From a virus (taxonomy: Duplodnaviria; Caudoviricetes): a stretch of DNA of 64,000 nt. The translations under genes were made by a program, and so were the position numbers. The stretch is from the IMG/VR virus record IMGVR_UViG_3300012663_001722, positions 1 through 64,000 of that record; one strand, written 5' to 3'. Positions within the stretch are counted from its first letter, which is position 1, and each line of letters begins with the position of its first letter. The notes below the pieces were generated by a model. The model was not told the origin of the DNA. It was given only the letters and a program-made list of their open reading frames with translations, and did no database searches. Positions 2,435 through 15,217 of this stretch are shown here, piece by piece.

Positions 2435-2444
2435 ATATTGGCTG

Positions 2445-2495
2445 TTGCTTACAAGGAAATAATACCACAAATCACGCGATTTGTACACCTAAAAA
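2445..2495 (-). promoter_or_regulatory. Early promoter type I (TGTACA-17-TATTAT, palindromic spacer)
   Basis: -35 at 2482-2487, -10 at 2459-2464; near-identical copies at 10167, 23342, 26036, 29099. Confidence 0.8.
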
Positions 2496-2706
2496 TTCAT
2501 ATTTTTTAAATATTTCTCCTATTGCACACTGAAGACCTAGGTCTGTGGCTCCTAGTAAATCCCATGTCGGATGTAATATTCTCGAATGGGCAGATGATGC
2601 TACATCAAATGTACAGCCGCTCCATATCTTGCTCCACACTTGATCCTCTACGCTGCAAAATACTGCATTCTTTATAGTGACATTGATCTCGTTTTTCAAT
2701 ATTCAT
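2472..2706 (-). pseudogene. Diverged MNI..YEY family gene with apparent +1 frameshift near the start
   Basis: ATG AAT ATT GAA AAA C GAG ATC: coupled ATG at 2706 is one base out of frame with the body ORF (2472..2699, TTG start). Confidence 0.45.
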
Positions 2707-2842
2707 ATCCGTTTATTGCATTGTCAACTGAGCCATAAATTGCGTTAATAACTGAGCCATAAACTGAGCCCCAAACTGAGCCACCAACTGAGCCCCAAAC
2801 TGAGTTACTAACTAAGTCATATATTTCCCTTTCAATATTCAT
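2696..2842 (-). CDS. SVxx-repeat mini-protein (48 aa)
   Basis: Read by hand: MNIEREIYDLVSNSVWGSVGGSVWGSVYGSVINAIYGSVDNAINGYEY; below ORF-track cutoff. Confidence 0.75.
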   Translation of the reverse strand: MNIEREIYDLVSNSVWGSVGGSVWGSVYGSVINAIYGSVDNAINGYEY

Positions 2843-2965
2843 AATCTGCTATTACAGTGTTAACAGAGTTACTAACTGAGTTACAAACTGAGTTCCAAAC
2901 TGAGTTCCAAACTGAGTTCCAAACTGAGTTACTAACTGAGTTACTAACTGAGTTACTAACTGAGC
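2720..2965. repeat. 12-bp tandem repeat array B (plus strand NNNNNAACTGAG)
   Basis: aactgag recurring every 12 bp in two blocks. Confidence 0.9.
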
Positions 2966-2990
2966 GATCTATTTCCCTTTCAATATTCAT
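2832..2990 (-). CDS. SVxx-repeat mini-protein (52 aa)
   Basis: Read by hand: MNIEREIDR(SVSN)3(SVWN)3SVCNSVSNSVNTVIADYEY. Confidence 0.75.
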   Translation of the reverse strand: MNIEREIDRSVSNSVSNSVSNSVWNSVWNSVWNSVCNSVSNSVNTVIADYEY

Positions 2991-3180
2991 AATGATCTAT
3001 ATAGTCGTCAATAGCATCTACAATTTTACATGTGCATACAAAATGAGGATATGTTACCTTAGACCAATAGATGTTATGAAAATCATAAGGTACAATGTAA
3101 GTCAAATCGTCAAGCTGTGTTTTAAGACTTGACTCACTAGTCTGCACATGACAATGTAGTTTTTCAAAAATATCAGTCAT
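2980..3180 (-). CDS. Hypothetical protein ending HYEY, coupled to the SVxx array
   Basis: ATG 3180 just after the tRNA; track extension to 3267 is tRNA sequence. Confidence 0.6.
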   Translation of the reverse strand: MTDIFEKLHCHVQTSESSLKTQLDDLTYIVPYDFHNIYWSKVTYPHFVCTCKIVDAIDDYIDHYEY

Positions 3181-3189
3181 AATAGAGAG

Positions 3190-3273
3190 TAGCCACGGCC
3201 GGAGTCGAACCGGCACGCCCGTAAGGACAACGGATTTTAAGTCCGCGACGTCTACCAATTCCGCCACGTGGCC
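3190..3273 (-). tRNA. trnL-TAA: tRNA-Leu (anticodon TAA), no encoded CCA
   Basis: GGCCACG acceptor, D arm GGCGGAATTGGTAGAC, anticodon loop CTTAAAA, long variable arm, GGTTCGACTCC T arm. Confidence 0.95.
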
Positions 3274-3288
3274 ATAAAACTTTATTTA

Positions 3289-3528
3289 TCAAATTCCTCG
3301 ATAGAGAGTATAGAAGGCAACATCTTCAGGCGTTGCATCTCGTACATATTCATAAGAACTGCTATGATGCGATGTGTATATATCAACTTCATGATATACT
3401 TTATTATCGCTGCCAATAAAATAACCACTTTTCCATCTACCAGTTATGATAAGATGCTGTTGAATTATTCTCAAGATCTCGCTCTGCGAGAGCTCTACTT
3501 CGACATGTTGAATTGCTTTTACTCTCAT
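3289..3528 (-). CDS. Hypothetical protein
   Basis: 79 aa ORF coupled (ATGA) to upstream gene. Confidence 0.6.
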   Translation of the reverse strand: MRVKAIQHVEVELSQSEILRIIQQHLIITGRWKSGYFIGSDNKVYHEVDIYTSHHSSSYEYVRDATPEDVAFYTLYRGI

Positions 3529-3947
3529 GCTTCTGAAGTTTTCATTGTTTCATGAACAGTGTCAATCACAATGGTATCGGGCTCGCCTTCATCTTGAAGA
3601 ATTTTTGTGCCCTCAGGCCAAGCTTGTTCTTTGGCTTTTTTGCCTTTGGTTTTTTTTAGCACAGGAGTCACGCTACTTAGCACTGGCTTGCCAGCTTTTT
3701 TAGCGCGCTTTGTGCCACTTGATGTTGGAGCAGTGACTGCCCTACCTGCATCAACGCCTGTGACATCCCATTTGCCTCGTCCGACTTTATTTGTCATAAA
3801 GACTTCAGCAGCGCCAACATAACCGAAGCCATGCGCGCGGGCTGTTTCATAGATTTGAACTGTAGAGGCAACAGGCCAAGCACCAATTGCATGTAGTGCG
3901 TTAATAACTGTTGCATTGTCACCATATTTTGTACGTGTTTGTTTCAT
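3525..3947 (-). CDS. Stand-alone paralog of the N-terminal domain of the MoxR/CobS-like ATPase, with basic tail
   Basis: ALHAIGAWPVASTVQIYETARAHGF..FMTNKVGRGKW aligns by eye with SLKAIGAWPTASTTQIYEHARANGF..FMTHKVGRGSW at 60761..61939. Confidence 0.75.
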   Translation of the reverse strand: MKQTRTKYGDNATVINALHAIGAWPVASTVQIYETARAHGFGYVGAAEVFMTNKVGRGKWDVTGVDAGRAVTAPTSSGTKRAKKAGKPVLSSVTPVLKKTKGKKAKEQAWPEGTKILQDEGEPDTIVIDTVHETMKTSEA

Positions 3948-3972
3948 AATATATTTGTTGTTTGTTGGAGAA

Positions 3973-4152
3973 TTAGAGATTGTTGTGAAGGACCAAATAG
4001 TCGACATAGCATTTTACACTAGACAAAGTCTTGAAGGTGGTTGCGCGCACCATCCACATGCCGCCATGTGTGCCGCTATTGGGCAGGCGTTTGAAAATAG
4101 TTACGCCGCGATATTCAGAGTGCTTTTTGTATTTAGGAGTGAGAACTAACAT
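3973..4152 (-). CDS. Small early protein (59 aa)
   Basis: Read by hand: MLVLTPKYKKHSEYRGVTIFKRLP...; first ATG after promoter. Confidence 0.6.
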   Translation of the reverse strand: MLVLTPKYKKHSEYRGVTIFKRLPNSGTHGGMWMVRATTFKTLSSVKCYVDYLVLHNNL

Positions 4153-4260
4153 ATTGCTTACAAGGATATTATACCATAAAACACAGGAAAAGTAAACAAA
4201 AAAGTGATATTTTTTTCACTTTTTTTAGGGGCCCCAGGCCGGCCCCCCAGCTGGGCCCCA
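4153..4260 (-). promoter_or_regulatory. Early promoter type II (TTTACT-17-TATAAT) with A-tract and upstream GC-rich palindromic element
   Basis: -10 4168-4173, -35 4191-4196, GC element 4228-4260. Confidence 0.8.
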
Positions 4261-4304
4261 GACATATATGTCTGGGGTCTTATTCGTGGCTCTCTCAGTT
4301 CAGC

Positions 4305-4526
4305 TTAGGGAGCGCAGACTAATGCATATTCACGCTGATGAATCTCGCTCCACACCTTTGATTCTATTCCTAAATTCATCATTGGCGAGATTATGCCATT
4401 CCATATCTCATCATCAGCCACACCATAGCCGGAAAATGTCATATGCTTGACTGCTATCAAGCTTGAAGAGATCGCGTCACGGGCCGCGCGCTGTATCTTG
4501 TCTCTTACCTCTACGTCAATATTCAT
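4305..4526 (-). CDS. Diverged MNI..YEY family protein
   Basis: MNIDVEV start overlapping upstream YEY-stop. Confidence 0.6.
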   Translation of the reverse strand: MNIDVEVRDKIQRAARDAISSSLIAVKHMTFSGYGVADDEIWNGIISPMMNLGIESKVWSEIHQREYALVCAP

Positions 4527-4740
4527 AATCAAAAAGACTATCTGCTATTCTAACGTATAGCTCGACCCATACTACGTCACTTACAGGAATCTCTATATCA
4601 CACCAAACATTGTCTGAGACTATGTTATGTTTAGATCTCGAAACGCTTTCGAAAAGTGGATCCGCTATATTAATATAGCTTCTGCGGCGTGTTACGTCAT
4701 ATAGATATTCTTCAATATTCATATATTGTTGATATATCAT
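4516..4740 (-). CDS. Diverged MNI..YEY family protein
   Basis: MNIEEYL near N-terminus, ends DYEY. Confidence 0.6.
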   Translation of the reverse strand: MIYQQYMNIEEYLYDVTRRRSYINIADPLFESVSRSKHNIVSDNVWCDIEIPVSDVVWVELYVRIADSLFDYEY

Positions 4741-4973
4741 TCAAAAATACCCGCGGGTATAAGGGTATAACTAACTTTCACCGACATCAACGATGAGTGC
4801 TTATCATAAAAATCATATTCAAAACTGGATAATACACGATCATATCTTACTCTACTTCGCACACTATTAATAACATCGACTTCCACAATATTTGCAATTT
4901 CGAAATATAGCTGTTCACGCAGACTGATATTTTTGTCATATAGTTTGGTATCTATTTCCTTTTCAATATTCAT
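4737..4973 (-). CDS. Diverged MNIEKEI family protein
   Basis: MNIEKEID N-terminus; residual NSV/SV motifs. Confidence 0.65.
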   Translation of the reverse strand: MNIEKEIDTKLYDKNISLREQLYFEIANIVEVDVINSVRSRVRYDRVLSSFEYDFYDKHSSLMSVKVSYTLIPAGIFE

Positions 4974-5169
4974 ATTCTTTTATTGCAGCGTTAACTGAGT
5001 TCCTAACTGAGTCACTAACTGAGATACCAGCTGAGATACCAGCTGAGATCCAAACTGAGATCCGAACTGAGATCCGAACTGAGTCATCAACCGAGCTATA
5101 AACCGAGTTATTAACTGAGTCATAAACTGAATTTCTAACTACATTATCTATTTCCTTTTTAATATTCAT
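4963..5169 (-). CDS. SVxx-repeat mini-protein
   Basis: MNIKKEID..(xxSV)n..NAAIKEYEY. Confidence 0.8.
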   Translation of the reverse strand: MNIKKEIDNVVRNSVYDSVNNSVYSSVDDSVRISVRISVWISAGISAGISVSDSVRNSVNAAIKEYEY

Positions 5170-5525
5170 ATTCCTCTAATATATCAATAACCGAGTCTCT
5201 AACTGAGTCCCAAACTGAGCCATAAACTGTGTTCCTAACTGAGATACCAACTGAGTGCCAAACTGAGTCTCTAACTGAGTGCCAAACTGAGTCTCTAACT
5301 GAGTTATCAACTGAGCGATCTATTTCCTTTTCAATATTCATATTCTTTTATTGCAGCGTTAACTGAGTTACTAACCGAGTCCCAAACTGAGTTCCCAACT
5401 GAGTTCAAAACTGAGTTCCCAACTGAGCCACCAACTGAGCCCCAAACTGAGTTACTAGCTGAGTTACGAACTGAGTCCCAAACTGAGTTACTAACTGAGT
5501 TATTAACTGAGTCAATAACTGAATA
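4985..5525. repeat. 12-bp tandem repeat array A
   Basis: aactgag/aaccgag every 12 bp in three blocks. Confidence 0.9.
5159..5341 (-). CDS. SVxx-repeat mini-protein
   Basis: MNIEKEIDR..SVRDSVWH..EEYEY. Confidence 0.8.
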   Translation of the reverse strand: MNIEKEIDRSVDNSVRDSVWHSVRDSVWHSVGISVRNTVYGSVWDSVRDSVIDILEEYEY

Positions 5526-5549
5526 ATATATTTCCTTTTTAATATCCAT
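5331..5549 (-). CDS. SVxx-repeat mini-protein
   Basis: MDIKKEIYYSVIDSV..NAAIKEYEY; start refined to 5549. Confidence 0.8.
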   Translation of the reverse strand: MDIKKEIYYSVIDSVNNSVSNSVWDSVRNSASNSVWGSVGGSVGNSVLNSVGNSVWDSVSNSVNAAIKEYEY

Positions 5550-5772
5550 AATAATCAACAACTTCTCTCAATTTCTGCTCAAATACATCACAAAAATCCA
5601 ATGGTCTCATGACCCCAGAACGGACTGCATGTAAATCATCTTTATTAACAATCATCATACTTAAGCTGACCATTTTTTCATCTATGCCTAGCACGCGAGG
5701 CAATGCTAGCCACACATTTCTATCACAAGAATAAACATAGTCATCAACGGATATTTCAAATGTAGTTTTCAT
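5539..5772 (-). CDS. Hypothetical protein ending YYGY, coupled to array A
   Basis: 77 aa ORF; stop overlaps ATGGATATT of next gene. Confidence 0.6.
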   Translation of the reverse strand: MKTTFEISVDDYVYSCDRNVWLALPRVLGIDEKMVSLSMMIVNKDDLHAVRSGVMRPLDFCDVFEQKLREVVDYYGY

Positions 5773-6062
5773 TAATCTTGCTTAGCAAGATGTATTTTTT
5801 GAAAAGCCTTAGCATTTGCGTAAACTGTTGACATGCTCAAACGACGTGTAAAGTCTGAGCGAGAAAGCGGTTTATCCATTGGAGTATTATCCATTCGCCA
5901 GCCGTCGGGCGACTTAATAAATTCAACATAAGCAAATTCAGGATCTTGTAGCCACTCTTGTGGAGTCTTTTTTGCAAAAATTACATCCCAGCCTTTGCGA
6001 TACATATCATTGCTAACGCGACTAGAGATGCTGTCGCCTGTAATATCATTTTTAGTTGCCAT
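5772..6062 (-). CDS. Hypothetical protein
   Basis: MATKNDITGDSI..MYRKGWDVIF motif; start refined. Confidence 0.65.
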   Translation of the reverse strand: MATKNDITGDSISSRVSNDMYRKGWDVIFAKKTPQEWLQDPEFAYVEFIKSPDGWRMDNTPMDKPLSRSDFTRRLSMSTVYANAKAFQKIHLAKQD

Positions 6063-7152
6063 ATTGTTCAAGAATTTTAAATAGGGTATCTGAGAATTGT
6101 TTCTCGTTAATTTCTTTGCGATCAAATAGAGAGAAGGCTAGACCAGTTTGCCAGCCTTCAAAGTTAGCTAGCACAAGTTGTGCCGCATCCTTGCGAGTCT
6201 CACACCAATCAAGATCAGTTTTGATAAAGCTCTTGATTCGATCAACTAGTTGCAAATAGTCATTATAGACTGCGACAACTGTCTCAATATCATCTTTGAT
6301 TTTTTCAGCAATCTCATAGTCAAGAGTGCTCTCAACATAGGCATAAAACTCATCAGCTGCAGTAAATCGAGGGCTGCAGATAAAAAGTTCAAGAACATGC
6401 TTGATATTTTTAATGCCAGTCGCGAGCCGATGCAGTTTTAAATATGCATCAGCTTTGATTTTCTTGAGAGTCTGGCCATCAGGACTATATAACACAACGC
6501 CTTCTTTACCCGTCCATGCACTTACATCAGCGATGCAGCTTGCGATGCTATCATAGACATATCGATCTGGACGTGGCAGGCCAAGAATAGTTGCAATAAC
6601 ATCCACATTACTTGGTGTCATAAGCACTGCAGTCTCATTGTCAACAAGACCAAGCAAAGTTAGAGTAGGCTCAGCATGCTCACGAATTACAATAATATTG
6701 TTTGGAGTAGTCCATTCGAAAAGCAAACTCCAGCCACTGTCAAGATAGACATTGCTAAAAGCAGTTGGATATTTCTCGCGCAGCATATTAATCTCATGGC
6801 CATTAGGCAAAGTGCGAGCATCAACTGTGCCGCGAGTGCGAGCAATACTAACTCCAGCATATTGTGAAACGATTAGCAAACTGCCATCCATTTTGTGTCG
6901 AGCCTCGACTGGCCAAGTTGGGTCCCAAGGTTGAAATGCTGGCTTTTCACCATAGTTAGTGAATTTGCCAAAACCTTGAGACACAACATCTCCAGAAGAA
7001 TTTAATAGACAACTGCGAAATCGAGAATTGTCGTCTTGCCAATCTGTGCCCATGTCAGTTGGAGTCACAAGCGTAAGGGATTCTAACAGCTCAGGATGCT
7101 GCACACTCTGGACTTTGAATCCGCAGGCGGCGAGATATGTGGTGTCTTGCAT
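6052..7152 (-). CDS. RNA ligase, T4 Rnl1-like
   Basis: FGKFTNYGE, KMDGSL (KxDG motif I), FEW, KEGVV, KIK; start refined to ATG 7152. Confidence 0.8.
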   Translation of the reverse strand: MQDTTYLAACGFKVQSVQHPELLESLTLVTPTDMGTDWQDDNSRFRSCLLNSSGDVVSQGFGKFTNYGEKPAFQPWDPTWPVEARHKMDGSLLIVSQYAGVSIARTRGTVDARTLPNGHEINMLREKYPTAFSNVYLDSGWSLLFEWTTPNNIIVIREHAEPTLTLLGLVDNETAVLMTPSNVDVIATILGLPRPDRYVYDSIASCIADVSAWTGKEGVVLYSPDGQTLKKIKADAYLKLHRLATGIKNIKHVLELFICSPRFTAADEFYAYVESTLDYEIAEKIKDDIETVVAVYNDYLQLVDRIKSFIKTDLDWCETRKDAAQLVLANFEGWQTGLAFSLFDRKEINEKQFSDTLFKILEQYGN

Positions 7153-7190
7153 GGGATGATTATAGCATATTTTTCGCGATTTGTAAACCA
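7153..7190 (-). promoter_or_regulatory. sigma70-like promoter, probably leaderless transcript
   Basis: GTTTACA..TGCTATAAT, then 6 nt to ATG. Confidence 0.7.
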
Positions 7191-7205
7191 AAAAATGATG
7201 TTTTA

Positions 7206-7808
7206 TCACTTTTTTGCCTTCCAATCAATCACGACCTTTTCGTAAGGCTCAACCTCATAGATGCTGCTATATTCAATTTCTGTGCCATTATAGCTGGCAT
7301 ACCAGCCTGGAATATAGAAATAACGAGATGTGCCAGGCACTGCGCGGCTTTCGGCCTTAATCACACTATGCCAGTGTTCGCCAGAACCTTCACCACCGCC
7401 AACCTGTTCAACACATGTTAGAGTGAAGTTGTCATAGACCAGTCGAATCATTTCATTGACATATTGAACAAACTCGTCGCGCTCAAGACCATAGGCGCCA
7501 ATAGTCGTCTCTGCAATGCTATTAACTGGAAGACTATGTTTATAATGTACATTACGTTCTTTTAGATAATGATCCGTATCAAGCAGAGCTAGTGTCTGTT
7601 CTTTTGTATTTGTTTCTAGCTGTTCTAAAAGTGTTTGAATGATTTTTGAATCAAGCTCACTTAACGTCAAGCTATGAAGTCTAGAGTGCAAGCTTGCCTC
7701 TGCCTCTGCCACCGCTGCTGCCTCTGATGCTGCCTTTTCTGCAGCAACCTCGGCTTTCATTTTTTCCAGTTGTTTTTCCAATTCAAGGATTTGTGTATTA
7801 GTTTTCAT
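7206..7808 (-). CDS. Hypothetical phage protein (N-terminal coiled coil)
   Basis: C-terminal VEQVGGGEGSGE..GWYASYNGT..EVEPYEK pattern. Confidence 0.7.
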   Translation of the reverse strand: MKTNTQILELEKQLEKMKAEVAAEKAASEAAAVAEAEASLHSRLHSLTLSELDSKIIQTLLEQLETNTKEQTLALLDTDHYLKERNVHYKHSLPVNSIAETTIGAYGLERDEFVQYVNEMIRLVYDNFTLTCVEQVGGGEGSGEHWHSVIKAESRAVPGTSRYFYIPGWYASYNGTEIEYSSIYEVEPYEKVVIDWKAKK

Positions 7809-8571
7809 ATTTTATGCGATTATTGTTTAGTGCTGTTTTGAATTTTTCTATAAAGCTGCGATCACGGCATTGACGAAGAATGTGTATATTGCTAAGAATA
7901 AACCACTTAAACCAGCCGCTGCTCATGGTTGTTGCGAGTTTTTTCAAACTCTTTTGATATGCAGCCGTGATGCTGCACTTAAAATCTGTGGGTATGATAT
8001 ATCGTTCAAGAGCAGTTACCCACACCTCTTCTTTAACGAGTAATATTTTATCAGTCCAGTTTAGTTGTTCAAAGCCGCGTTCGCTGCAACTCACACCTTC
8101 ATAAACTAGTCTTTCATAAAGAGGCTTGTCATAAATGGCAACTGCTTCATGAATGCTATCATGATTATATTTTCTCTTGACTGCGTCTTCAAAAAATGTA
8201 GTGCTATCTTTGCCCTTTAGACTGGCCCATTTCTTGCCGTGTTTTTGGATCCAGCCTTTGACAAGACGTTCATAAACTCCACGATCTGGCATGCATCCCT
8301 TTGAGAAAAGAAATTCAACATCAGAGACATGTTTTTCCCAAAGAATATCCCAGCCAAGATGGCTAAGTTTGAGAGTGAGTAGCAAATTTGGATCAAGATA
8401 GCTTTCATCAAAGTTAATGTCAATAAGCTCTTGAAATTCTGAGATCCAAAGACGTTCAACATCTTTTGTTGAAACACCATCGGCACAAATCAAATCAAGA
8501 TCCTTTGGCACTCGCTTAAAATCGTGATACCAATGTTTGATGGCAGTGCTGCCTATTATTAGACTTTTCAT
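7798..8571 (-). CDS. Putative nucleotidyltransferase-fold protein
   Basis: IIGSTA..(x12)..DLD resembles hG[GS]x9-13Dh[DE]; start refined to TAATG overlap at 8571. Confidence 0.55.
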   Translation of the reverse strand: MKSLIIGSTAIKHWYHDFKRVPKDLDLICADGVSTKDVERLWISEFQELIDINFDESYLDPNLLLTLKLSHLGWDILWEKHVSDVEFLFSKGCMPDRGVYERLVKGWIQKHGKKWASLKGKDSTTFFEDAVKRKYNHDSIHEAVAIYDKPLYERLVYEGVSCSERGFEQLNWTDKILLVKEEVWVTALERYIIPTDFKCSITAAYQKSLKKLATTMSSGWFKWFILSNIHILRQCRDRSFIEKFKTALNNNRIKYEN

Positions 8572-8996: not shown

Positions 8997-9020
8997 ACTG
9001 GTATTATATTGAGGTTCGTT

Positions 9021-9191
9021 TTAGTTAGAGAGTTCAACTTCCTCCCACGCGTCAGGAATTGCTCTGCAGCCATCATCTTCAACCCAGCCCCAGGTTTTTA
9101 ACCCCAGAAGATTCATTTGCTCTCTTGCAAATTCAGGATGAAATCCGATGGTAACTAGTTCTGACGCTTTACGGTCGATATATGCTTTCAT
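9021..9191 (-). CDS. Small hypothetical protein (56 aa)
   Basis: Read by hand: MKAYIDRKASELVTIG...EEVELSN. Confidence 0.55.
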   Translation of the reverse strand: MKAYIDRKASELVTIGFHPEFAREQMNLLGLKTWGWVEDDGCRAIPDAWEEVELSN

Positions 9192-9396
9192 AAATTGGTT
9201 GGATTGTGTAAGTGGATGCAGAGTATTGATATTCGGGCTCAGTCATAAGAGCGGTTTCGGCTTCTTCGAAGGAATCATAGTCACGCTTATAGCCTTTTTG
9301 AGTGAAAGCATATTCGGTATAATTCGTGATATGATAGCCGTCAGGAACGGGACTCGTATGAGATTCAATTGTGTAAATGCGGTATTTCTTTTTCAT
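9169..9396 (-). CDS. Hypothetical protein
   Basis: 75 aa ORF in gene run. Confidence 0.6.
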   Translation of the reverse strand: MKKKYRIYTIESHTSPVPDGYHITNYTEYAFTQKGYKRDYDSFEEAETALMTEPEYQYSASTYTIQPIYESIYRP

Positions 9397-9413
9397 ATCA
9401 AGGTTTCCTTTAG

Positions 9414-9635
9414 TTAGAAGCTTGCAGGTTTATAGAGTTGGAGCTTAGCTTCGCGCGCTTGAAATAGAGAAAATCCACCAGAAATATCCTGCTCGTGATC
9501 ATCAAGCGATACAACCCTGAAGAAAGGATCATCTGGAAAAATCTCACTGTTCAAAATTTCAATGACTTTGTAAATATCACCAGAGCCGTCGTTAATAAAG
9601 ATGTCGCCTACTTGTACGAGTTCGTTGTCGTTCAT
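9414..9635 (-). CDS. Hypothetical protein
   Basis: 73 aa ORF preceded by junction motif. Confidence 0.6.
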   Translation of the reverse strand: MNDNELVQVGDIFINDGSGDIYKVIEILNSEIFPDDPFFRVVSLDDHEQDISGGFSLFQAREAKLQLYKPASF

Positions 9636-9657
9636 ATTGTATTATATTGGGGTTCGT

Positions 9658-9879
9658 TTAGCAAGGAGTGCCATATTCTGACTCTTTCACGTTCTGAGCA
9701 TCTTTCAAGAGCCGTTCATATTCAACACGTGAAACGATCACAAGATCCTTCTTAAGGAAATATGCTTTGATTGTTTGGAGAACACTCTCCTTTGCGCTCA
9801 TTGCTGGCTTTGCAAAGGTATTGTTGTTCCAGAACTTTTCAGTCAGGTCGTCAATCAGTTTGTCGAGTTTTACTTCCAT
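9658..9879 (-). CDS. Hypothetical protein
   Basis: 73 aa ORF flanked by junction motifs. Confidence 0.6.
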   Translation of the reverse strand: MEVKLDKLIDDLTEKFWNNNTFAKPAMSAKESVLQTIKAYFLKKDLVIVSRVEYERLLKDAQNVKESEYGTPC

Positions 9880-9902
9880 GATGATATTATATCGAGGTTC
9901 GT

Positions 9903-10139
9903 TTAGTTGGAGAGCTCCACTGTACCGTCAAAGTCTTTGAAGAGGCTGAGATCCCAGACGTCACTATAGGCACCAACTCGCGCGAAAGAAGATACAGAGT
10001 GAATGAGCACCCCTTGCCCTAGGTGCTCCCCAATTACTTTACGTTCAAGCACCATAAAGAAGACATCGCCATCCTCGTCGATCATAAGTTTCGGAAAGGG
10101 CTTGGTTTGTTTGGTTTGTTTGGTAATTTTCGTTTTCAT
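9903..10139 (-). CDS. Hypothetical early protein
   Basis: First gene after promoter; KPFPKLM..FKDFDGTVELSN. Confidence 0.7.
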   Translation of the reverse strand: MKTKITKQTKQTKPFPKLMIDEDGDVFFMVLERKVIGEHLGQGVLIHSVSSFARVGAYSDVWDLSLFKDFDGTVELSN

Positions 10140-10149
10140 ATTGTGTTAG

Positions 10150-10247
10150 AGGTTGCTTACAAGGAAATAATACCACAAATCACACGATTTGTACACCTAA
10201 AAATGATATTTTTTCACAAAAAATAAGGGGCCCCGGCAGGGCCCCCA
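10150..10247 (-). promoter_or_regulatory. Early promoter type I with upstream GC-rich element
   Basis: -10 10167-10172, -35 10190-10195, ggggccccggcagggccccc at 10227-10246. Confidence 0.8.
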
Positions 10248-10268
10248 GTAAAAAATGTCACATTTTTC

Positions 10269-11033
10269 TTATTTTTTTAGCTTCTTGAAGCCATTTGCCT
10301 TAATTGTCTCATAGACGCCATACTTCTCGAGCAGTACTCTCTCTAAGATATGGCATTCATAGGCATCCTCAAAATTATAGAGCATCTTGCTAATCACTGG
10401 ACACTCTGCAATAAAGATATCGCGAACTGCCTCAGCGACCAGTCGACATTCCTTTTGTGCTGTTTTATGTAAACGCTGGTTAAGAGTTGTAATCCAATCT
10501 CGAATCTTGCCGTTGAAAATAAGCACAGTCTCAGTTGTCTCTGGCAGAATCATACGAGCACACTCACGTGCGACACCTGCTTCAAGAAGTCGAGCGTAGA
10601 GTTCTTTTGTACGATTAAGATGAGACATGATCTCGTCACTTGCTAAGCTATCGTTTATAATACTCGGATCAAACTCTTCTGTCGAGCTTTGTCGATTATC
10701 TTTGCTTTGCATGCGCAGTTCAATTGGCTCGAACTCGCTGATGCTCTTATAGCGCTGACTTAGTTCTTGCGGAGCAAGACTCCAGTGACGCAGTAGTTCT
10801 CGACCGATAGCGCGACTAGTTGTAATTTCAAAACCAAGATTGGCTTCACCAAATACACTCCAGTGACTATGATTCAAGCAGTGACGCAGTAACTTATGAG
10901 GCTCAGCGAAAAGCTCATTTGCCTCACGGCTGCTACTGCATCTGGCAATGCCAACAATAATTTCATCAATAGTTTTTCCTTCATATTCTGTGCCCTTGGC
11001 ACCCTCAGTTTTTGTTAGTAATCGTACTTTCAT
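10269..11033 (-). CDS. thyX: Flavin-dependent thymidylate synthase
   Basis: HWSVFG, SRAIGRELLRHWSLAPQELSQRY (RHx7SxR), RECARMILP, RLHKTAQKECR. Confidence 0.9.
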   Translation of the reverse strand: MKVRLLTKTEGAKGTEYEGKTIDEIIVGIARCSSSREANELFAEPHKLLRHCLNHSHWSVFGEANLGFEITTSRAIGRELLRHWSLAPQELSQRYKSISEFEPIELRMQSKDNRQSSTEEFDPSIINDSLASDEIMSHLNRTKELYARLLEAGVARECARMILPETTETVLIFNGKIRDWITTLNQRLHKTAQKECRLVAEAVRDIFIAECPVISKMLYNFEDAYECHILERVLLEKYGVYETIKANGFKKLKK

Positions 11034-11365
11034 AGTTCTTTTTCCTTGAGTTCAACAAACTCAACAAGCTTCAACAACTCTTTTTGCGCTGTTTTATGTC
11101 GAGCTTTTATTGATGCTCTGCAAGTGACTGGTAGAATGCCATATCGTGTAGTTTTAAATTCTTTGATATCAGAACAGCCATGCGCAAAAGCTTGAAAATA
11201 AAGATTAAACTCAAGCATTAGCGCACTTTTTGCAGCGGACTTTTTGCTCCAATTTTCTTTGCCAGATCTCATGCGCAAATATTCGCCACGATAACGAATC
11301 TTCCAACTAGTTTTTCTTTTACCAAGTTGTGCTAATTGAGTTAGATGCTGATGAAAGTCAATCAT
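11030..11365 (-). CDS. Hypothetical basic protein
   Basis: 111 aa ORF coupled on both sides. Confidence 0.6.
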   Translation of the reverse strand: MIDFHQHLTQLAQLGKRKTSWKIRYRGEYLRMRSGKENWSKKSAAKSALMLEFNLYFQAFAHGCSDIKEFKTTRYGILPVTCRASIKARHKTAQKELLKLVEFVELKEKEL

Positions 11366-11658
11366 AGATCAATGTCATTGCCAAGGCACTCAATAAAGAG
11401 TTGCATATCACGAATTCTGGCAGAAATGGCGAAGATAGCTTGCGTGCGTTCGCTTGCTCCTGCAGGAAAATCTGAAGGGCAAGAAGGTACCTCCGCGGTA
11501 GACTTCTTCAAATAAGGTCCTAATCGGTCACGAAATACCGCTAGTTGTTCTTGCAAAATATTACATTCTTTGTAGAGCTTATCAATTGAATCGCTAATGC
11601 CTGGAGCTTTTTCGCATTGGACTTTTTCATTAAGTTGACCGGTGTGTATATTATACAT
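11362..11658 (-). CDS. Hypothetical protein
   Basis: 98 aa ORF coupled on both sides. Confidence 0.6.
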   Translation of the reverse strand: MYNIHTGQLNEKVQCEKAPGISDSIDKLYKECNILQEQLAVFRDRLGPYLKKSTAEVPSCPSDFPAGASERTQAIFAISARIRDMQLFIECLGNDIDL

Positions 11659-12182
11659 TATTTTATTTTTTCTTTTAGTTGTTCGAGAGTTGTGAAATAG
11701 TAATAGCCACTGCTGTCTGCCACTACTCGGTCAACACAAGTGTTGACATAGCGATCATCTAGCACTTTTTTGCCATACCAATTGCGACGTACTATGCTTT
11801 TCATATGCACATGTCCATGAACATTAAGCACACGTCCACGCAATTCATCGGGATGCAATGGTGCATGGCTTAACCACATTTTTTTATAGCTAATGATGCC
11901 ATGAATTTCTTCAAAGACATCTGCTTGTAAGCTTGTGCTTACAAAGTCGTCATGGTTGCCTTTGATTAGGATCTTACGACCAGGCAATTCGCCAACAAGT
12001 TTTAGGCTATCTTCGTCAAATGCGACATCGCCCATAAAAAAGACAATGTCCTTTTTCTTGATTTCTTTAAGATAACGAGATACAAAGATGCGAGAGTTGT
12101 CGGCTGTGTCCTTGACCCAAGGTCTATATTTTGCAATGGCTCTATGGCCAAGATGTGGGTCTCCGATAAAAAATATGCTCAT
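11658..12182 (-). CDS. Calcineurin-like metallophosphoesterase
   Basis: GDPHLGH, GDV, GNHD, SHAP, HGHVH. Confidence 0.9.
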   Translation of the reverse strand: MSIFFIGDPHLGHRAIAKYRPWVKDTADNSRIFVSRYLKEIKKKDIVFFMGDVAFDEDSLKLVGELPGRKILIKGNHDDFVSTSLQADVFEEIHGIISYKKMWLSHAPLHPDELRGRVLNVHGHVHMKSIVRRNWYGKKVLDDRYVNTCVDRVVADSSGYYYFTTLEQLKEKIK

Positions 12183-12183
12183 A

Positions 12184-12300
12184 TTACCAGTTGGGTGGAG
12201 GTGGAAGTTTATTGCTTATAAACAAGCAAATTAGAAATGCTCCCGCAAGAACGCCTAGCGTAAATGCGCCAAGTAGTAATAGAATAAGTCCTAGTGTCAT
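12184..12300 (-). CDS. Small single-TM membrane protein (38 aa)
   Basis: Read by hand: MTLGLILLLLGAFTLGVLAGAFLICLFISNKLPPPPNW. Confidence 0.55.
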   Translation of the reverse strand: MTLGLILLLLGAFTLGVLAGAFLICLFISNKLPPPPNW

Positions 12301-12301
12301 T

Positions 12302-12409
12302 TTATTTTGATTTTAGTTTTTCGATTATAAGAGATGCTATAAGCGCAATCAAACAGCAGAGTTGTATGCAAAACACACAGATGAAAATTTTAGTTGAGAT
12401 ATCATTCAT
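12302..12409 (-). CDS. Small single-TM membrane protein (35 aa)
   Basis: Read by hand: MNDISTKIFICVFCIQLCCLIALIASLIIEKLKSK; ATGA-coupled. Confidence 0.5.
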   Translation of the reverse strand: MNDISTKIFICVFCIQLCCLIALIASLIIEKLKSK

Positions 12410-12816
12410 AGCTGAATGGTATTTAGCAAACTAATTTTCTGATTGGCTTTGACTGCCTTTGGCACACTATGTACATCATCGCTGCCATGACGATTTTCAA
12501 GTACGACACTTGTGACAATTGCTCGGCCCTTTGCGGCGTTGACATAATAGGCAAAATCACTTGGCTTGGTATTAGTATTTGCTACAATGAGAAGCTGAGC
12601 AGTGCCATGTTCCAGCGAATGTTCAAAGCGTTCTTGGCATGCTCGATGTGCGTGTCCTAACAATTTTGCATCAAAGTTATAGTTGCCATTTTCATCAGTA
12701 AAGAAATCGTCGGCTGTGAAAACATCGACAAGTTTTGGATCAAGAGATTCGAGCATGCTAGCAAAGGTACTTTTGCCAGAGCCAGAGACGCCACGTAGTA
12801 TAAGAACAGTTTTCAT
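12406..12816 (-). CDS. P-loop kinase, polynucleotide-kinase-like (AAA_33 type)
   Basis: LILRGVSGSGKST, ADDFF, IVANTNT, HSVP. Confidence 0.8.
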   Translation of the reverse strand: MKTVLILRGVSGSGKSTFASMLESLDPKLVDVFTADDFFTDENGNYNFDAKLLGHAHRACQERFEHSLEHGTAQLLIVANTNTKPSDFAYYVNAAKGRAIVTSVVLENRHGSDDVHSVPKAVKANQKISLLNTIQL

Positions 12817-12839
12817 AATGATATTGTATCGGAGTTCAT

Positions 12840-13289
12840 TTAGACGTATTCATCAACTTCAGGTGATTGAGAACGCTGCATTTGCTTAGAAAGCTGACCT
12901 TCACGGCTCTTACGATCATGAAGTTGTCTTCGAGCATTCTTGAGAAGACGAGTGGCAAAGCAAGGGTCGTGATCAGTCAACCACTTTTCGAGACTGTATT
13001 CACCATTGCCGTTATCGAAAATCGCGGACGACAGCGGTGCAGGAGAATGAACCCTACCCTGAAAGTAGATAGTGACTCGTCCACCATTTTCAAATGAAAC
13101 AGTGCACATAGTGCCGTGCGCCTTAGCTTTGACGTTATTCACGTCTGATCTATACTTCAAAGTCATCAATTCATCAATGACATATCGTGCATAGCCGTTA
13201 CGACCTTCGAGCTTGCGCTCGGAGTAAGTCATTGGACGGGTAATCATAGTGCCTTTTGGTGGAGTAAATGTTGCAGGGCTGTTGATCAT
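12840..13289 (-). CDS. Hypothetical protein
   Basis: 149 aa ORF in gene run. Confidence 0.6.
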   Translation of the reverse strand: MINSPATFTPPKGTMITRPMTYSERKLEGRNGYARYVIDELMTLKYRSDVNNVKAKAHGTMCTVSFENGGRVTIYFQGRVHSPAPLSSAIFDNGNGEYSLEKWLTDHDPCFATRLLKNARRQLHDRKSREGQLSKQMQRSQSPEVDEYV

Positions 13290-13308
13290 AATGTAATTTT
13301 TGTAGAGT

Positions 13309-13509
13309 TTATTTAGTTTTGATACGACCTGCTCGGTCGCATAGAAAGATCTTATCGCCTACTGCTTTTAGTAGTTTCCAATCACCTGTCTTGTGATTCT
13401 CCATTTGCTTTTTGATGCGAGCTGGAATATCTTCAAACGAATCAAAGGTTTTGATTTCAGGACCAAAAATTCCAATCGGTCCAAAATACATATATTGCTT
13501 TGCTTTCAT
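13309..13509 (-). CDS. Hypothetical protein
   Basis: 66 aa ORF. Confidence 0.55.
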   Translation of the reverse strand: MKAKQYMYFGPIGIFGPEIKTFDSFEDIPARIKKQMENHKTGDWKLLKAVGDKIFLCDRAGRIKTK

Positions 13510-13533
13510 ATTATGATTGTGTTAGAGTTTTGT

Positions 13534-13833
13534 TTAGTGTGCGTAGCCGTATTCGTAGAGACCAGTGAGCATCTCCTTGAGTTCGAGCATGCTCATGTCC
13601 TTGAGACCAAGACCGCGAGGGCGAACGCCATGGACTTCTTTATAGACGTCCCAGATGGTGTTCTCGAGCTCTTGACGCTCGAAGTCTTCCACTGTGTGGA
13701 TGCCGATGCTGTTCCAGTAGCCGATGTCGCTGATATACTGGCACATAAAGCGGTTGTTCGGATCTTCATCGATCCAAGCTTGAGCTTTGGCGTTGAGTGA
13801 CTCGATGTGAGAGAGAAGAGAGTTGCTTTGCAT
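13534..13833 (-). CDS. Hypothetical early protein, probably leaderless
   Basis: IWDVYKEVHGVRPR motif; ATG 6 nt after TATAAT. Confidence 0.7.
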   Translation of the reverse strand: MQSNSLLSHIESLNAKAQAWIDEDPNNRFMCQYISDIGYWNSIGIHTVEDFERQELENTIWDVYKEVHGVRPRGLGLKDMSMLELKEMLTGLYEYGYAH

Positions 13834-13923
13834 GAGACCATTATACCATAAAAGTCCACAAAAGTAAACAAAAAAGTGAAAAAATGTGAAAATATTTTAG
13901 GGGCCCGGGCCGGCCCCAGGCCT
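13834..13923 (-). promoter_or_regulatory. Early promoter type II with upstream GC-rich element
   Basis: -10 13840-13845, -35 13863-13868, GC element 13900-13923. Confidence 0.8.
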
Positions 13924-14573
13924 CAATGATGATCCCACGAAGCTCTTGGTTTCGTTACCATGATCTCTTGGATCTCTTGGAGGCTAAAAAATGCAGTGCT
14001 ATTATGAGCCTTTGCATTATCTACGCCGCAGTCAAGAATCTTGCCGAAGTTCGTGCCTCGCGGATTAATGCCTTCAATTTTGCCATGGCTGTGTCCACAG
14101 AGACACATTGCTCCAAGGCTCATTTCAGGATAGACAAGCGGGCTCATGTGAGTGCAATAGAAAAGACTATGATCGATTTTCAATAGCATGCTATCACCAA
14201 TCATGGTTACGTTTGGAGTTAGCGGAAGCGGATAAACTTCTTCGTGGCTTGCATGATAGTCATCACACGCAGTGGCATAGAGTTGTTTTACGCCGCTGTT
14301 ATGATTACCCCAGACCATAAGAGTCTCGCATGGAATTTCACGAATCAGATTAATGATAGGATCAGGTCCAACACTAAGGCCAAAGTCACCGAGAAAAATC
14401 AATAGAGTTTTCGGATCAAGGTTTAGCAGTTGACTACGAATCCATGCACTATGCTCCTGTTCATTCTCAAATCCGCGAGCAGCCCAGACAAAATCCTTGT
14501 TATGTCCATAGTGCAGATCACTTGTAACTAGGACTTGACTATAGTCACTTGATTTTCTTTTAATTTTTATCAT
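13923..14573 (-). CDS. Calcineurin-like metallophosphoesterase
   Basis: SDLHYGH, GDF, GNHN, CGHSHG, DCGVD. Confidence 0.9.
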   Translation of the reverse strand: MIKIKRKSSDYSQVLVTSDLHYGHNKDFVWAARGFENEQEHSAWIRSQLLNLDPKTLLIFLGDFGLSVGPDPIINLIREIPCETLMVWGNHNSGVKQLYATACDDYHASHEEVYPLPLTPNVTMIGDSMLLKIDHSLFYCTHMSPLVYPEMSLGAMCLCGHSHGKIEGINPRGTNFGKILDCGVDNAKAHNSTAFFSLQEIQEIMVTKPRASWDHH

Positions 14574-14579
14574 AATATT

Positions 14580-14825
14580 CTATTTAATACGTTTTGGTGG
14601 TTTATTACGTTTTGGTGGCCGAACAAAGTCTTTAGCCACAAAGATATTTTCGAAAGCAGCGGAGATAACGCCAAGCGGCAACCCGCTGATCTCTGCCATC
14701 TTTTCCATGCAGACTCCATCAAGGATATATCGTGCAGAGCCTATAGCGAAAGCGCGATCATCATCGTCCATGTCTTCATATGACTTGATGTTGTCATATT
14801 GATCAAGATCTTCGATTTTATTCAT
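14580..14825 (-). CDS. Hypothetical protein
   Basis: 81 aa ORF. Confidence 0.55.
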   Translation of the reverse strand: MNKIEDLDQYDNIKSYEDMDDDDRAFAIGSARYILDGVCMEKMAEISGLPLGVISAAFENIFVAKDFVRPPKRNKPPKRIK

Positions 14826-14826
14826 A

Positions 14827-15045
14827 TTATTTTATTGCAGCGTTAAGCGAGATATAAACTGAGTTACTAACCGAGTTCCGAACTGAGACATTAACTGAGA
14901 TCCAAACTGAGCTCCAAACTGAGCCATCAACTGAGTTACAAAGTGAGTTACAAAGTGAGTCATCAACTGAGTCATAGACTGAGTTACTAACTGAGTCCCA
15001 AACTGAGTCAATAACTGAATAATATATTGCTTCTTTAATATCCAT
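14827..15045 (-). CDS. SVxx-repeat mini-protein
   Basis: MDIKEAIYYSVIDSVWDSV..NAAIK. Confidence 0.8.
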   Translation of the reverse strand: MDIKEAIYYSVIDSVWDSVSNSVYDSVDDSLCNSLCNSVDGSVWSSVWISVNVSVRNSVSNSVYISLNAAIK

Positions 15046-15190
15046 ATTCCCTTAGTGCAATATTAACAGAGTTATTAACTGAGCTCCTAACTGAGATCCA
15101 AACTGAGCTCCAAACTGAGTAACAAACCGAGCTATAAACCGAGCTATAAACCGAGTTATTAACTGAGTCACTAACTGAGCTAAAAACTGA
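14845..15190. repeat. 12-bp tandem repeat array C
   Basis: aactgag/aaccgag every 12 bp. Confidence 0.9.
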
Positions 15191-15217
15191 GACATCTATT
15201 TCCTTTTCAATATTCAT
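15035..15217 (-). CDS. SVxx-repeat mini-protein
   Basis: MNIEKEIDVSVFSSV..REYGY; start refined to 15217. Confidence 0.8.
   Translation of the reverse strand: MNIEKEIDVSVFSSVSDSVNNSVYSSVYSSVCYSVWSSVWISVRSSVNNSVNIALREYGY

What the first reader, a model, noticed from the sequence alone, without database searches (positions are those of the whole stretch)
2472..15217. Three arrays of translationally coupled mini-genes built from hypervariable 12-bp S-V-x-x repeats
Seen: seven 48-72 aa genes (2696-2842, 2832-2990, 4963-5169, 5159-5341, 5331-5549, 14827-15045, 15035-15217) share an M(N/D)I(E/K)xEI head, 8-15 S-V-x-x units and, in six of the seven, a YEY/YGY tail. The xx positions vary freely (W, Y, R, G, S, N, D, H, I, C). 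S-V is kept with synonymous changes (TCA/TCG/TCT GTT), unit counts differ only in multiples of 12 bp and no stop appears in the sense frame, which points to protein-level selection. Arrays 10 kb apart share an identical 27-nt head (ATATATTATTCAGTTATTGACTCAGTT at about 5505 and 15001), suggesting ongoing recombination or gene conversion. Two genes are missed by the ORF track. Inference: a combinatorial peptide library diversified by slippage and recombination without a reverse transcriptase, possibly early anti-defence decoys or host-protein binders. The 4-residue period would put S/V on one helix face and the variable aromatic residues on another.
Basis: partly seen in the sequence, partly recalled or inferred. 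Interest (0 to 1): 0.85.

Follow-up and report, generated by a model that had tools for sequence, protein, structure and literature searches.

The report
Free-standing tetrapeptide-repeat mini-gene arrays in phage
An uncultured freshwater T4-like phage carries seven tiny overlapping genes built almost entirely from a fast-changing four-amino-acid repeat (Ser-Val-x-x); other phages carry this repeat inside larger proteins of unknown function (DUF6745), the gene count differs between near-identical strains, and the function is unknown, with binding or counter-defence only inferred.

Summary
Seven minus-strand genes of 48-72 aa in three arrays consist of a 7-aa head, 8-15 S-V-x-x units (12-bp period) and, in six of the seven, a YEY/YGY tail. 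A 21-nt junction encodes both one gene's tail and the next gene's start.

They are real coding genes:
- More than 30 copies in this phage and its relatives keep the S-V frame open.
- Diversity by codon position is 2nd < 1st < 3rd.
- Other lineages encode the same S-V with different codons.

The repeat matches the internal tetrapeptide tract of DUF6745 and DUF7666 phage and prophage proteins (hhalign 99% probability; 1869 cluster representatives). It is analogous, not homologous, to the A-A-x-x tract of mycobacteriophage Tweety gp54, a published tunable counter-defence protein.

Strains with about 97% identical flanks carry 2, 6 or at least 4 mini-genes at one site. No reverse transcriptase was found. 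Function is unknown; binding or counter-defence is inferred.

Related phages have a repeat-less DUF6745 gene beside an array. This 86-kb fragment, about 48% complete, has none.

Earlier notes of this scan report the same kind of array on other DNA: 85 notes in at least 60 genomes match the search words.

Verdict: a new variant of a known kind, moderately high interest.

The parts
2696..2842 (-). mini-gene, 48 aa, about 9 S-V-x-x units, tail GYEY (array B, second gene)
   Evidence: hmmsearch E 5e-20
2832..2990 (-). mini-gene, 52 aa; runs of identical adjacent 12-nt units (SVSN x3, SVWN x3)
4963..5169 (-). mini-gene, 68 aa (array A, third gene)
5159..5341 (-). mini-gene, 60 aa, with a duplicated 24-nt unit (SVRDSVWH x2)
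5331..5549 (-). mini-gene, 72 aa (array A, first gene); used as the query for homology and fold work
14827..15045 (-). mini-gene, 72 aa; ends without the YEY tail, at a TAA where paralogs have GAA
15035..15217 (-). mini-gene, 60 aa, tail EYGY (array C, first gene)
2472..2699 (-). diverged eighth relative: about four repeat units at the N-terminus, then a non-repeat C-terminus ending KKYEF...; conserved in sister strains
   Evidence: hmmsearch E 2e-4; orthologs L026:3411-3647 and L027:734-970
4305..4973 (-). three non-repeat small genes (4737-4973, 4516-4740, 4305-4532) chained by the same YEY-stop/ATGAAT junction
   Evidence: marginal hmmsearch hits at E about 0.05 that I attribute to the shared head and tail
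2980..3186 (-). non-repeat gene ending ...HYEY whose stop overlaps the start of the first array-B mini-gene
3189..3273 (-). tRNA-Leu(TAA), directly upstream of array B in the same gene string
7159..7187 (-). sigma-70-like promoter (TTTACA-17-TATAAT with TG), nearest strong promoter upstream of array A
   Evidence: consensus match only
4168..4196 (-). sigma-70-like promoter (TTTACT-17-TATAAT with TG) upstream of the string that ends in array B
   Evidence: consensus match only
16342..16370 (-). sigma-70-like promoter (TTTACT-17-TATAAT with TG) upstream of the string that holds array C
   Evidence: consensus match only

Best explanation
The seven ORFs are real protein-coding genes of a phage-specific family of small acidic proteins (pI 4.05-5.09). 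Each consists of a 7-aa head (M-N/D-I-E/K-x-E-I), a run of S-V-x-x tetrapeptides and a short tail (..EYEY). They are free-standing versions of the tetrapeptide tract that many phage and prophage accessory proteins carry between an N-terminal domain and a DUF6745 or other C-terminal domain. S and V are held by purifying selection. The two x positions (mostly W, Y, R, G, S, N, D) are kept diverse. The arrays evolve quickly in two ways. One is slippage or duplication of 12- and 24-nt units within a gene. The other is unequal recombination between genes, for which the 21-nt junction repeated at each gene boundary offers a ready site of homology. The result is that near-identical strains differ in the number and sequence of mini-genes. 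No reverse transcriptase is involved as far as the held sequence shows. Inferred, not shown: the genes lie in strings behind sigma-70-like promoters, so they are probably early genes. The variable repeat surface probably binds host or defence proteins, making a multi-copy tunable panel. This follows the analogy with Tweety gp54, where changes in the number of tetrapeptide repeats retune a counter-defence.
For: Coding in the S-V frame:
- All 7 copies here are intact, as are 12 in contig 008176, 4 in contig 002506, 9 in L026 and 4 in L027.
- Nucleotide diversity per unit position is 0-0.02 at the second codon positions of S and V, 0.12-0.14 at the first and 0.20-0.33 at the third (267 units).
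- The alternative T-Q-F frame does not show a codon-like pattern.
- Other lineages encode S-V with TCG-GTC (L014) or AGT-GTY (L015), which destroys the alternative frame.

Diversity at x-x:
- Diversity (pi) is 0.55-0.69 at the five x nucleotides, against 0.20-0.33 at silent sites.
- The third base before S is C in 89% of units, although long ORFs of the window prefer AAT and GAT (72-77%).

Homology:
- 88 longer proteins match, down to E 1e-24, most of them carrying PF20530.
- 1869 cluster representatives match at E<=1e-3.
- hhalign of the mini-gene profile against a DUF6745-family profile gives 99.2% probability, E 1.8e-19, over the tract.
- The larger proteins sit in phage or prophage early or accessory regions.
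- The ESM Atlas nearest clusters are viral 59-69-aa proteins, and its DUF6745 cluster is 88% viral.

Turnover:
- L026 is 96.7-97.0% identical to the window over 1869 and 1367 nt of flanks but has six mini-genes where the window has two.
- L027 (97.6% identical flank) has at least four at that site.
- Relative G001 has four mini-genes after a 94%-identical ortholog of 15220-15531, where the window has two.
- Identical adjacent 12- and 24-nt units and exact 28-39-nt blocks shared between paralogs mark slippage and exchange.
- The first array-B gene aligns as a mosaic of L026 gene 1 (94 nt, 97%) and the end of L026 gene 2 (50 nt, 94%).

No reverse transcriptase in G000 or G001-G004.

Analogue: Tweety gp54 has 12-bp A-A-x-x units with invariant third codon positions and variable first and second positions (PMC2884959). 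Defence-escape mutants against Phrann gp29/gp30 change the repeat number (PMC9262239).
Against: - No expression or protein data exist. The only RNA hint is a few exact 151-nt contigs of a metatranscriptome over neighbouring genes, which may be DNA carry-over.
- Matches between simple repeats inflate E-values, so shared ancestry with the DUF6745 tract, as opposed to convergence, is likely but not proven.
- The structure is unresolved: pLDDT 65 for the mini-protein and 35-41 for the tract in context.
- Individual copies are clearly dispensable, since strains have 2 or 6.
- Frozen silent sites could also reflect a constraint on DNA or RNA rather than selection for protein diversity.
- Tweety gp54 is not homologous (hhalign probability 0.3%) and has flanking domains that these proteins lack, so carrying its function over is analogy only.
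Confidence: 0.6

Rival explanations
1. Detached-insert model. The mini-proteins are exchangeable helical inserts that dock onto a repeat-less DUF6745 core protein encoded by the same phage, rebuilding in trans the architecture that other phages encode in one chain. One core could then take many alternative repeat modules.
For: Relatives G001/G002 and G003 encode a repeat-less DUF6745-like protein (336 and 324 aa; PF20530 at 34.6 and 33.5 bits, above the 27-bit cut-off). In G001 it lies one gene upstream of the 9-gene array. In the AF2 model of a one-chain DUF6745 protein, residues 1-73 and 134-327 both reach pLDDT above 90, the whole-model pTM is 0.70, and the tract (74-133) is modelled as a low-confidence helical hairpin between them. 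Earlier notes of this scan report the same neighbourhood and docking models in other genomes; those notes are unchecked leads.
Against: This record has no DUF6745-like gene by Pfam model or by the relatives' protein. It also has no type B or C flanking domain. The record is only about 48% complete, and array B lies 2.7 kb from the contig end, so absence is not shown. The arrays here are scattered among unrelated early genes.
Confidence: 0.2
2. Neutral or selfish repeat ORFs. The cassettes spread and shrink by recombination at the shared junction. Their products are tolerated but have no function of their own.
For: Copy number varies freely between strains (2, at least 4, or 6). The junction also chains unrelated genes. 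No family with a known function matches.
Against: S-V is preserved across lineages with different codons. Diversity by codon position is codon-like. Every one of more than 30 copies is intact, with head and tail. Head and tail are conserved at protein level even in distant arrays (MNFKDKI...KEYEF in L025).
Confidence: 0.1
3. DNA-level element. The 12-bp periodic CTCAGTT core would be an array of protein-binding sites (iteron-like, recombination or packaging signal), and the ORFs would be incidental.
For: The 7-nt core, including three silent positions, is conserved against the genome's codon preference. Two frames are open on the same strand.
Against: Start, stop, head and tail are conserved in all copies. 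Other lineages keep the peptide repeat but use other 7-mers (TTCGGTC, CAGTGTY), so no particular DNA word is conserved. In one-chain homologs the same tract is in frame with globular domains.
Confidence: 0.05
4. A diversity-generating retroelement drives the variation (AAC to NNC at the x2 codon).
For: The x2 codons are NNC and AAC is the commonest, the codon type typical of DGR templates.
Against: No RVT_1 match at E<=1 in this record or in four related records, about 356 kb in all. No template/variable repeat pair was seen. All three bases of the x1 codon vary. Strains differ by gain and loss of whole units and genes, which DGRs do not cause.
Confidence: 0.03

Closest known systems
Internal tetrapeptide tract of DUF6745 (Pfam PF20530) phage and prophage proteins, e.g. 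P0004, P0075, P0092; Mycobacterium prophage prophiGD102-1 gp38 (QL-x-x) and Caudoviricetes sp. MW202476 UOF77368 (SL-x-S)
   Same: Same S-V-[W/R/G..]-[D/N..] unit, with hhalign 99.2% probability over the tract and E down to 1e-24. Two residues are fixed and two vary. Silent sites are uniform within each lineage. Both occur in phage early or accessory gene neighbourhoods.
   Different: Those proteins are 250-500 aa, with the tract inserted between an N-terminal domain and the DUF6745 domain. The mini-proteins have only a 7-aa head and a tail of about 9 aa, give no Pfam hit, and come as chained multi-gene arrays. DUF6745 itself has no known function and no clear fold match.
Mycobacteriophage Tweety gp54 (also Che8 gp57, PMC gp51): tetrapeptide-repeat 'tunable' counter-defence protein
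   Same: It has a 12-bp unit encoding a tetrapeptide with two invariant and two variable residues. Third codon positions are frozen while first and second positions of the variable codons change. W and G are common at the first variable position. Repeat number differs between related phages, and the gene is non-essential (PMC2884959; sequence). It is the only member of this kind with a tested role: escape mutants against Phrann gp29/gp30 change the repeat number (PMC9262239).
   Different: It is not homologous. The unit is A-A-x-x, with no Pfam match and hhalign probability 0.3% against the DUF6745 family. It is one 374-aa protein with unique N- and C-terminal regions, and the published model needs those domains. 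The host is an actinobacterium and the phage is temperate and siphovirus-like, not T4-like.
DUF7666 (PF24703) and 'MCxFFS...' N-terminal proteins with an SVxx tract and a ...SFDG..WRLH C-terminus (P0054, P0051, P0010, P0016)
   Same: They carry the same SVxx tract. P0016 lies next to the repressor/Cro-like genes and integrase of a prophage-like contig.
   Different: They have different flanking domains and are single genes. None of these domains is present in this record.
Diversity-generating retroelements and Bordetella phage BMP-1 VR2 repeats (bbp36)
   Same: They are phage-encoded loci that vary a protein surface. VR2 is a variable-number repeat in a non-essential gene, already compared with Tweety gp54 by Pham et al..
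   Different: No reverse transcriptase or template repeat was found. Variation here includes changes in unit and gene copy number.

Membership tests
DUF6745 (PF20530) proteins with an internal tetrapeptide tract | Tetrapeptide tract of the [S/Q]-[V/L]-x-x type | tested here: met
   (hhalign 99.2% over 41 columns); repeat matches inflate significance
DUF6745 (PF20530) proteins with an internal tetrapeptide tract | C-terminal DUF6745 domain (206-position Pfam model) | tested here: not met
   No Pfam hit on any of the seven proteins. No PF20530 match anywhere in the 86-kb record and no match to the relatives' DUF6745-like protein.
DUF6745 (PF20530) proteins with an internal tetrapeptide tract | N-terminal LTxEQ...W..G...P..I.W..SP domain before the tract | tested here: not met
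   The mini-proteins begin 7 residues before the tract.
Tweety gp54-type tunable tetrapeptide-repeat proteins | 12-bp unit with two invariant and two variable residues; silent third positions frozen while first and second positions vary | tested here: met
   compared with PMC2884959
Tweety gp54-type tunable tetrapeptide-repeat proteins | Repeat number differs between related phages | tested here: met
   Unit and gene numbers differ between the window, L026, L027 and G001.
Tweety gp54-type tunable tetrapeptide-repeat proteins | Sequence homology to gp54 and its unique N- and C-terminal regions | tested here: not met
   gp54 (P0236) has no Pfam family and hhalign probability 0.3% against the DUF6745 family. 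gp54 was not compared directly with the mini-proteins. The mini-proteins have no flanking domains.
Tweety gp54-type tunable tetrapeptide-repeat proteins | Counter-defence activity that depends on repeat number | not testable with these tools
   This needs phage genetics on defended hosts.
Diversity-generating retroelement | Reverse transcriptase plus a template/variable repeat pair with adenine-specific changes | tested here: inconclusive
   No RVT_1 match in G000 or G001-G004. All five records are fragments (24-51% complete). No template repeat was seen.
Iteron-like or other DNA-binding-site array | The DNA word is conserved regardless of coding, and frames are not maintained in relatives | tested here: not met
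   Frames are intact in more than 30 copies. Other lineages use other DNA words for the same peptide.

The most novel reading that the evidence does not exclude
The arrays would be an RT-independent diversity system at the level of whole proteins. Each mini-gene would encode an exchangeable repeat hairpin that works on its own or clips onto a repeat-less DUF6745-type core, as encoded beside the arrays in related phages. One phage would then express a panel of alternative specificity modules against host defence or other host targets, and would renew the panel by unit slippage and junction-mediated unequal recombination.
Probability: 0.2. Interest if true: 0.85.

Novelty: new variant of a known kind. 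Interest (0 to 1): 0.62.

Why it matters
Tetrapeptide-repeat proteins are a large class of phage accessory proteins that has barely been studied. Here 1869 cluster representatives match the profile. Only one analogue, Tweety gp54, has a tested role, and that role is a mutationally tunable counter-defence.

The free-standing arrays show the repeat tract can exist as a unit of its own. They also show it being copied, shuffled and lost at a rate visible between strains that are 97% identical elsewhere. If the products bind defence or host proteins, this would be a way for large lytic phages to diversify binders without a retroelement. It would also give a natural scaffold of minimal binders rich in W, Y, R and G.

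There is a practical point as well. Gene callers sometimes read these arrays in the wrong frame, so the family is under-annotated.

Tried and rejected
- **Family searches on the mini-proteins.** Pfam, PHROGs and NCBIfam gave only sub-threshold noise.
- **Cultured phages.** Megablast of 2400-5700 and tblastn of a mini-protein found nothing. The low-complexity filter may hide repeat matches.
- **Near-length protein search.** It gave only three fragments. The 'longer' search was the informative one.
- **Read and contig laying.** Contigs of three lake metagenomes cover the unique flanks with a few differences per hundred bases. Inside the arrays they break or join mosaically. This cannot separate real strain variation from assembly failure at repeats, so it is not used as evidence. 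The RNA-library contigs are too few to show transcription.
- **L016/L017 and L020/L021.** They are 100% identical, so they say nothing about variation.
- **Homotetramer prediction of the 72-aa protein.** No verdict (score 0.01).
- **Fold searches of the DUF6745 model.** Foldseek against PDB found nothing at E<=0.001. VIA-align wide gave a best Z of 4.8 over 56 residues. No usable fold assignment resulted.
- **Literature.** Searches for DUF6745, PF20530 and the motif DSVWDSV gave no papers. The primary paper behind the review's account of Tweety gp54 could not be retrieved under the PMC id I guessed from memory. The functional claim is therefore cited from the review PMC9262239.
- **DNA-mimic idea.** The proteins are only moderately acidic (net charge -1.5 to -6.3), and the one-chain homologs balance D with R. 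I did not pursue it.
- **Shine-Dalgarno argument for coupling.** Dropped, because other genes checked in this phage also lack the motif.

Full report
**Source.** The window is the first 64 kb of an 86,277-bp IMG/VR virus record estimated 48% complete. Its DNA polymerase is at most 47% identical to that of any cultured phage; the nearest are T4-like cyanophages. Public runs that hold the stretch are lake and other freshwater metagenomes. Nearly all genes lie on the minus strand.

- All seven ORFs are at the stated coordinates.
- The plus-strand word AACTGAG recurs every 12 nt: 65 matches of AACTGAG-N5-AACTGAG against 0.05 expected, all within 2726-2964, 4993-5523 and 14857-15191. There are none elsewhere in the record. 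Tandem Repeats Finder reports the same arrays.
- A 21-nt junction occurs seven times against 0.04 expected. On the coding strand it reads ..TATGAATATTGAAAAGGAAATA. The same letters therefore give Y-E-Y-stop for one gene and M-N-I-E-K-E-I for the next, with an 11-nt overlap.
- Gene lengths (147, 159, 183, 183, 207, 219, 219 nt) differ only by multiples of 12.
- Gene 14827-15045 ends without the tail, at a TAA where its paralogs have GAA.
- The two M-D-I-K genes share 28 exact nt at the head. Other pairs share exact blocks of 32-39 nt.
- All seven products are acidic, pI 4.05-5.09.
- A profile of the seven finds exactly these seven in the 86-kb record, plus a weaker eighth at 2472-2699 (E 2e-4). 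That gene has about four units followed by a non-repeat C-terminus.

**Which frame, and is it protein?** A second frame on the same strand (T-Q-F/L) is also open. Public gene calls of a sister strain use it for three genes. Three results favour the S-V frame.
1. Head, tail, start and stop are kept in every copy examined: 7 here, 12 in contig 3300042465_008176, 4 in 3300042544_002506, 9 in L026 and 4 in L027.
2. Over 267 units, nucleotide diversity is 0-0.02 at the second codon positions of S and V, 0.12-0.14 at the first and 0.20-0.33 at the third. That order is codon-like in this frame only.
3. Homologous tracts in other lineages encode S-V with TCG-GTC or AGT-GTY. This keeps S-V but changes the alternative frame entirely.

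S is TCA in 61 of 71 codons and V is GTT in 70 of 71.

**The variable positions.**
- The five nucleotides of x1 and the first two of x2 have diversity 0.55-0.69, two to three times that of the silent sites.
- The silent base before S is C in 89% of units, although long ORFs of the window prefer AAT and GAT over AAC and GAC (72-77%).
- Pham et al. described the same odd pattern for Tweety gp54: frozen third positions with varying first and second positions (PMC2884959).
- The pattern fits units that are copied from one another often, combined with selection that keeps x-x diverse. A constraint on the 7-nt core itself is not excluded.

**Relatives of the repeat.**
- The mini-proteins match no Pfam, PHROG or NCBIfam family.
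- A search among longer proteins gave 88 hits down to E 1e-24, most carrying PF20530 (DUF6745) and some PF24703 (DUF7666). A full HMMER search gave 1869 cluster representatives at E<=1e-3, mostly 250-500 aa, and a few stand-alone ones of 61-71 aa.
- In the long proteins the S-V-[W/R/G]-[D/N] tract sits between an N-terminal domain and DUF6745. In the other architecture it sits before a C-terminus ending ..SFDG..WRLH.
- Other lineages use Q-L-x-x or S-L-x-S at the same place.
- Profile-profile comparison of the mini-genes with 40 DUF6745 proteins gives 99.2% probability over the tract. Simple repeats inflate such scores.
- The long proteins examined lie in phage or prophage early or accessory regions.
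- The ESM Atlas lists viral clusters of 59-69-aa look-alikes with 58-120 members. It marks its DUF6745 cluster as 88% viral.

**Structure.**
- AlphaFold2 models the 72-aa protein as a two-helix hairpin at pLDDT 65.
- In a one-chain DUF6745 protein (P0075, 40-sequence alignment), residues 1-73 and 134-327 are confident (pLDDT above 90, pTM 0.70). The tract at 74-133 is a helical hairpin at pLDDT 35-41.
- The tract therefore looks like an excursion from a globular body, but its fold is not settled.
- DUF6745 has no clear match among solved structures.

**Turnover between strains** is the most direct new result.
- L026, an independent metagenome scaffold, matches the window at 96.95% over 1869 nt (window 4724-2862) and at 96.7% over 1367 nt (window 2817-1454).
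- Between these flanks the window has two mini-genes and L026 has six. L027 (97.6% over 1971 nt) has at least four and shares only the last two with L026.
- Upstream of the ortholog of 4516-4740, L026 has three mini-genes and lacks the 78-aa gene 4737-4973.
- In G001 a four-gene array follows a 94%-identical ortholog of 15220-15531, where the window has two.
- The window's first array-B gene aligns as the 5' 94 nt of L026 gene 1 (97%) joined to the 3' end of L026 gene 2 (94%). Alignments within repeats are not unique, so I treat this as suggestive.
- Identical adjacent 12- and 24-nt units mark recent slippage.
- No reverse transcriptase is found in this record or in four related ones. All of them are fragments.

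**Context.**
- Each array lies in a minus-strand gene string behind a strong sigma-70-like promoter with an extended -10: 7187-7159, 4196-4168 and 16370-16342 (consensus matches only).
- Neighbours include tRNA-Leu(TAA), a T4 Rnl1-like RNA ligase and a metallophosphoesterase.
- The junction also chains non-repeat genes. A distant 2-kb contig (L025) carries 11 chained genes with heads MN(F/L)xDKI and tails KEYEF. Some have repeats and some do not.

**Function.** Nothing here shows it. The published analogue is Tweety gp54. Mutants that escape the Phrann gp29/gp30 defence map to gene 54 and change the number of tetrapeptide repeats (review PMC9262239). gp54 is not homologous to the DUF6745 family. 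The authors' model also relies on its terminal domains, which the mini-proteins lack. My reading is that the repeat surface itself is the working part. Its variable positions are dominated by W, Y, R, G, S, N and D, residues common at protein-binding surfaces (my own knowledge, not tested here). The phage would then express a renewable panel of such surfaces early in infection. I put the coding and turnover parts at high confidence and the binding or counter-defence part at roughly one in three.

**A lead from earlier notes of this scan.** The notes say such arrays sit beside a repeat-less DUF6745 gene onto which a mini-protein docks. I tested the lead in part. G001/G002 and G003 do encode a repeat-less DUF6745-like protein (336 and 324 aa), and in G001 it lies one gene upstream of the nine-gene array. 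This record has none. It is about half a genome, and array B lies 2.7 kb from the contig end. Docking was not tested because my one complex job had already gone to a homotetramer, which gave no verdict.

**Comparison and novelty.** Variable tetrapeptide repeats in phage proteins have been in print since 2007, and DUF6745 is a Pfam family. I found no paper on DUF6745, PF20530 or the motif. I also found none describing free-standing chained arrays. Earlier notes of this scan report the same kind of array on other DNA: 85 notes in at least 60 genomes match the search words. I class it as a new variant of a known kind.

Noticed in passing
window 2696-5772 and 14825-15217: The YEY-stop/ATGAAT(A/T)T junction also links non-repeat genes: 2980-3186, 4737-4973, 4516-4740, 4305-4532, and the start of 14580-14825 as a degraded copy. 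It behaves as a general connector for small early genes, not only for the repeat genes.
   Followed up: partly
L026:248-391, 2534-2650, 2694-2849; L027:17-172: Public metagenome gene calls read several mini-genes in the wrong same-strand frame (T-Q-F/L peptides). The family is therefore partly mis-annotated in protein databases.
   Followed up: partly
window 4215-4262, 10226-10246, 23403-23437: There are short, very G+C-rich palindromic elements (GGGGCCCC-type) in a genome of about 39% G+C. One at 10246-10226 scores as a terminator. Another lies between array A's gene string and the next promoter. They may be a dispersed terminator or insulator family.
   Followed up: no
window 3189-3273 and 6052-7152: tRNA-Leu(TAA) and a T4 Rnl1-like RNA ligase (PF09511, E 2.6e-11) lie in the same early gene strings as the arrays. 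This pairing recalls tRNA-repair counter-defence in T4.
   Followed up: no
window, starts of 17 sampled minus-strand genes: The starts sampled are not preceded by a Shine-Dalgarno motif. This suggests a host with Shine-Dalgarno-independent initiation, and it weakens any argument that the mini-genes need coupling because they lack such a motif.
   Followed up: partly
L028:1033-2043 (G001) and L030:1069-2043 (G003): Related phages encode a DUF6745-like protein without any tetrapeptide tract. In G001 it lies one gene upstream of a nine-gene mini-gene array.
   Followed up: partly
L025:1-2065: A 2-kb contig from a public sequencing run consists wholly of 11 chained overlapping genes of 48-78 aa, with heads MN(F/L)xDKI and tails KEYEF. 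It mixes SVxx-repeat members with non-repeat members, a more diverged version of the same cassette system.
   Followed up: partly
window 3533-4913: A riverine metatranscriptome run (X15) holds exact 151-nt contigs over 3533-3683, 3700-3850, 4543-4693 and 4763-4913. This is a possible sign of transcription of the early strings, but DNA carry-over is not excluded.
   Followed up: no
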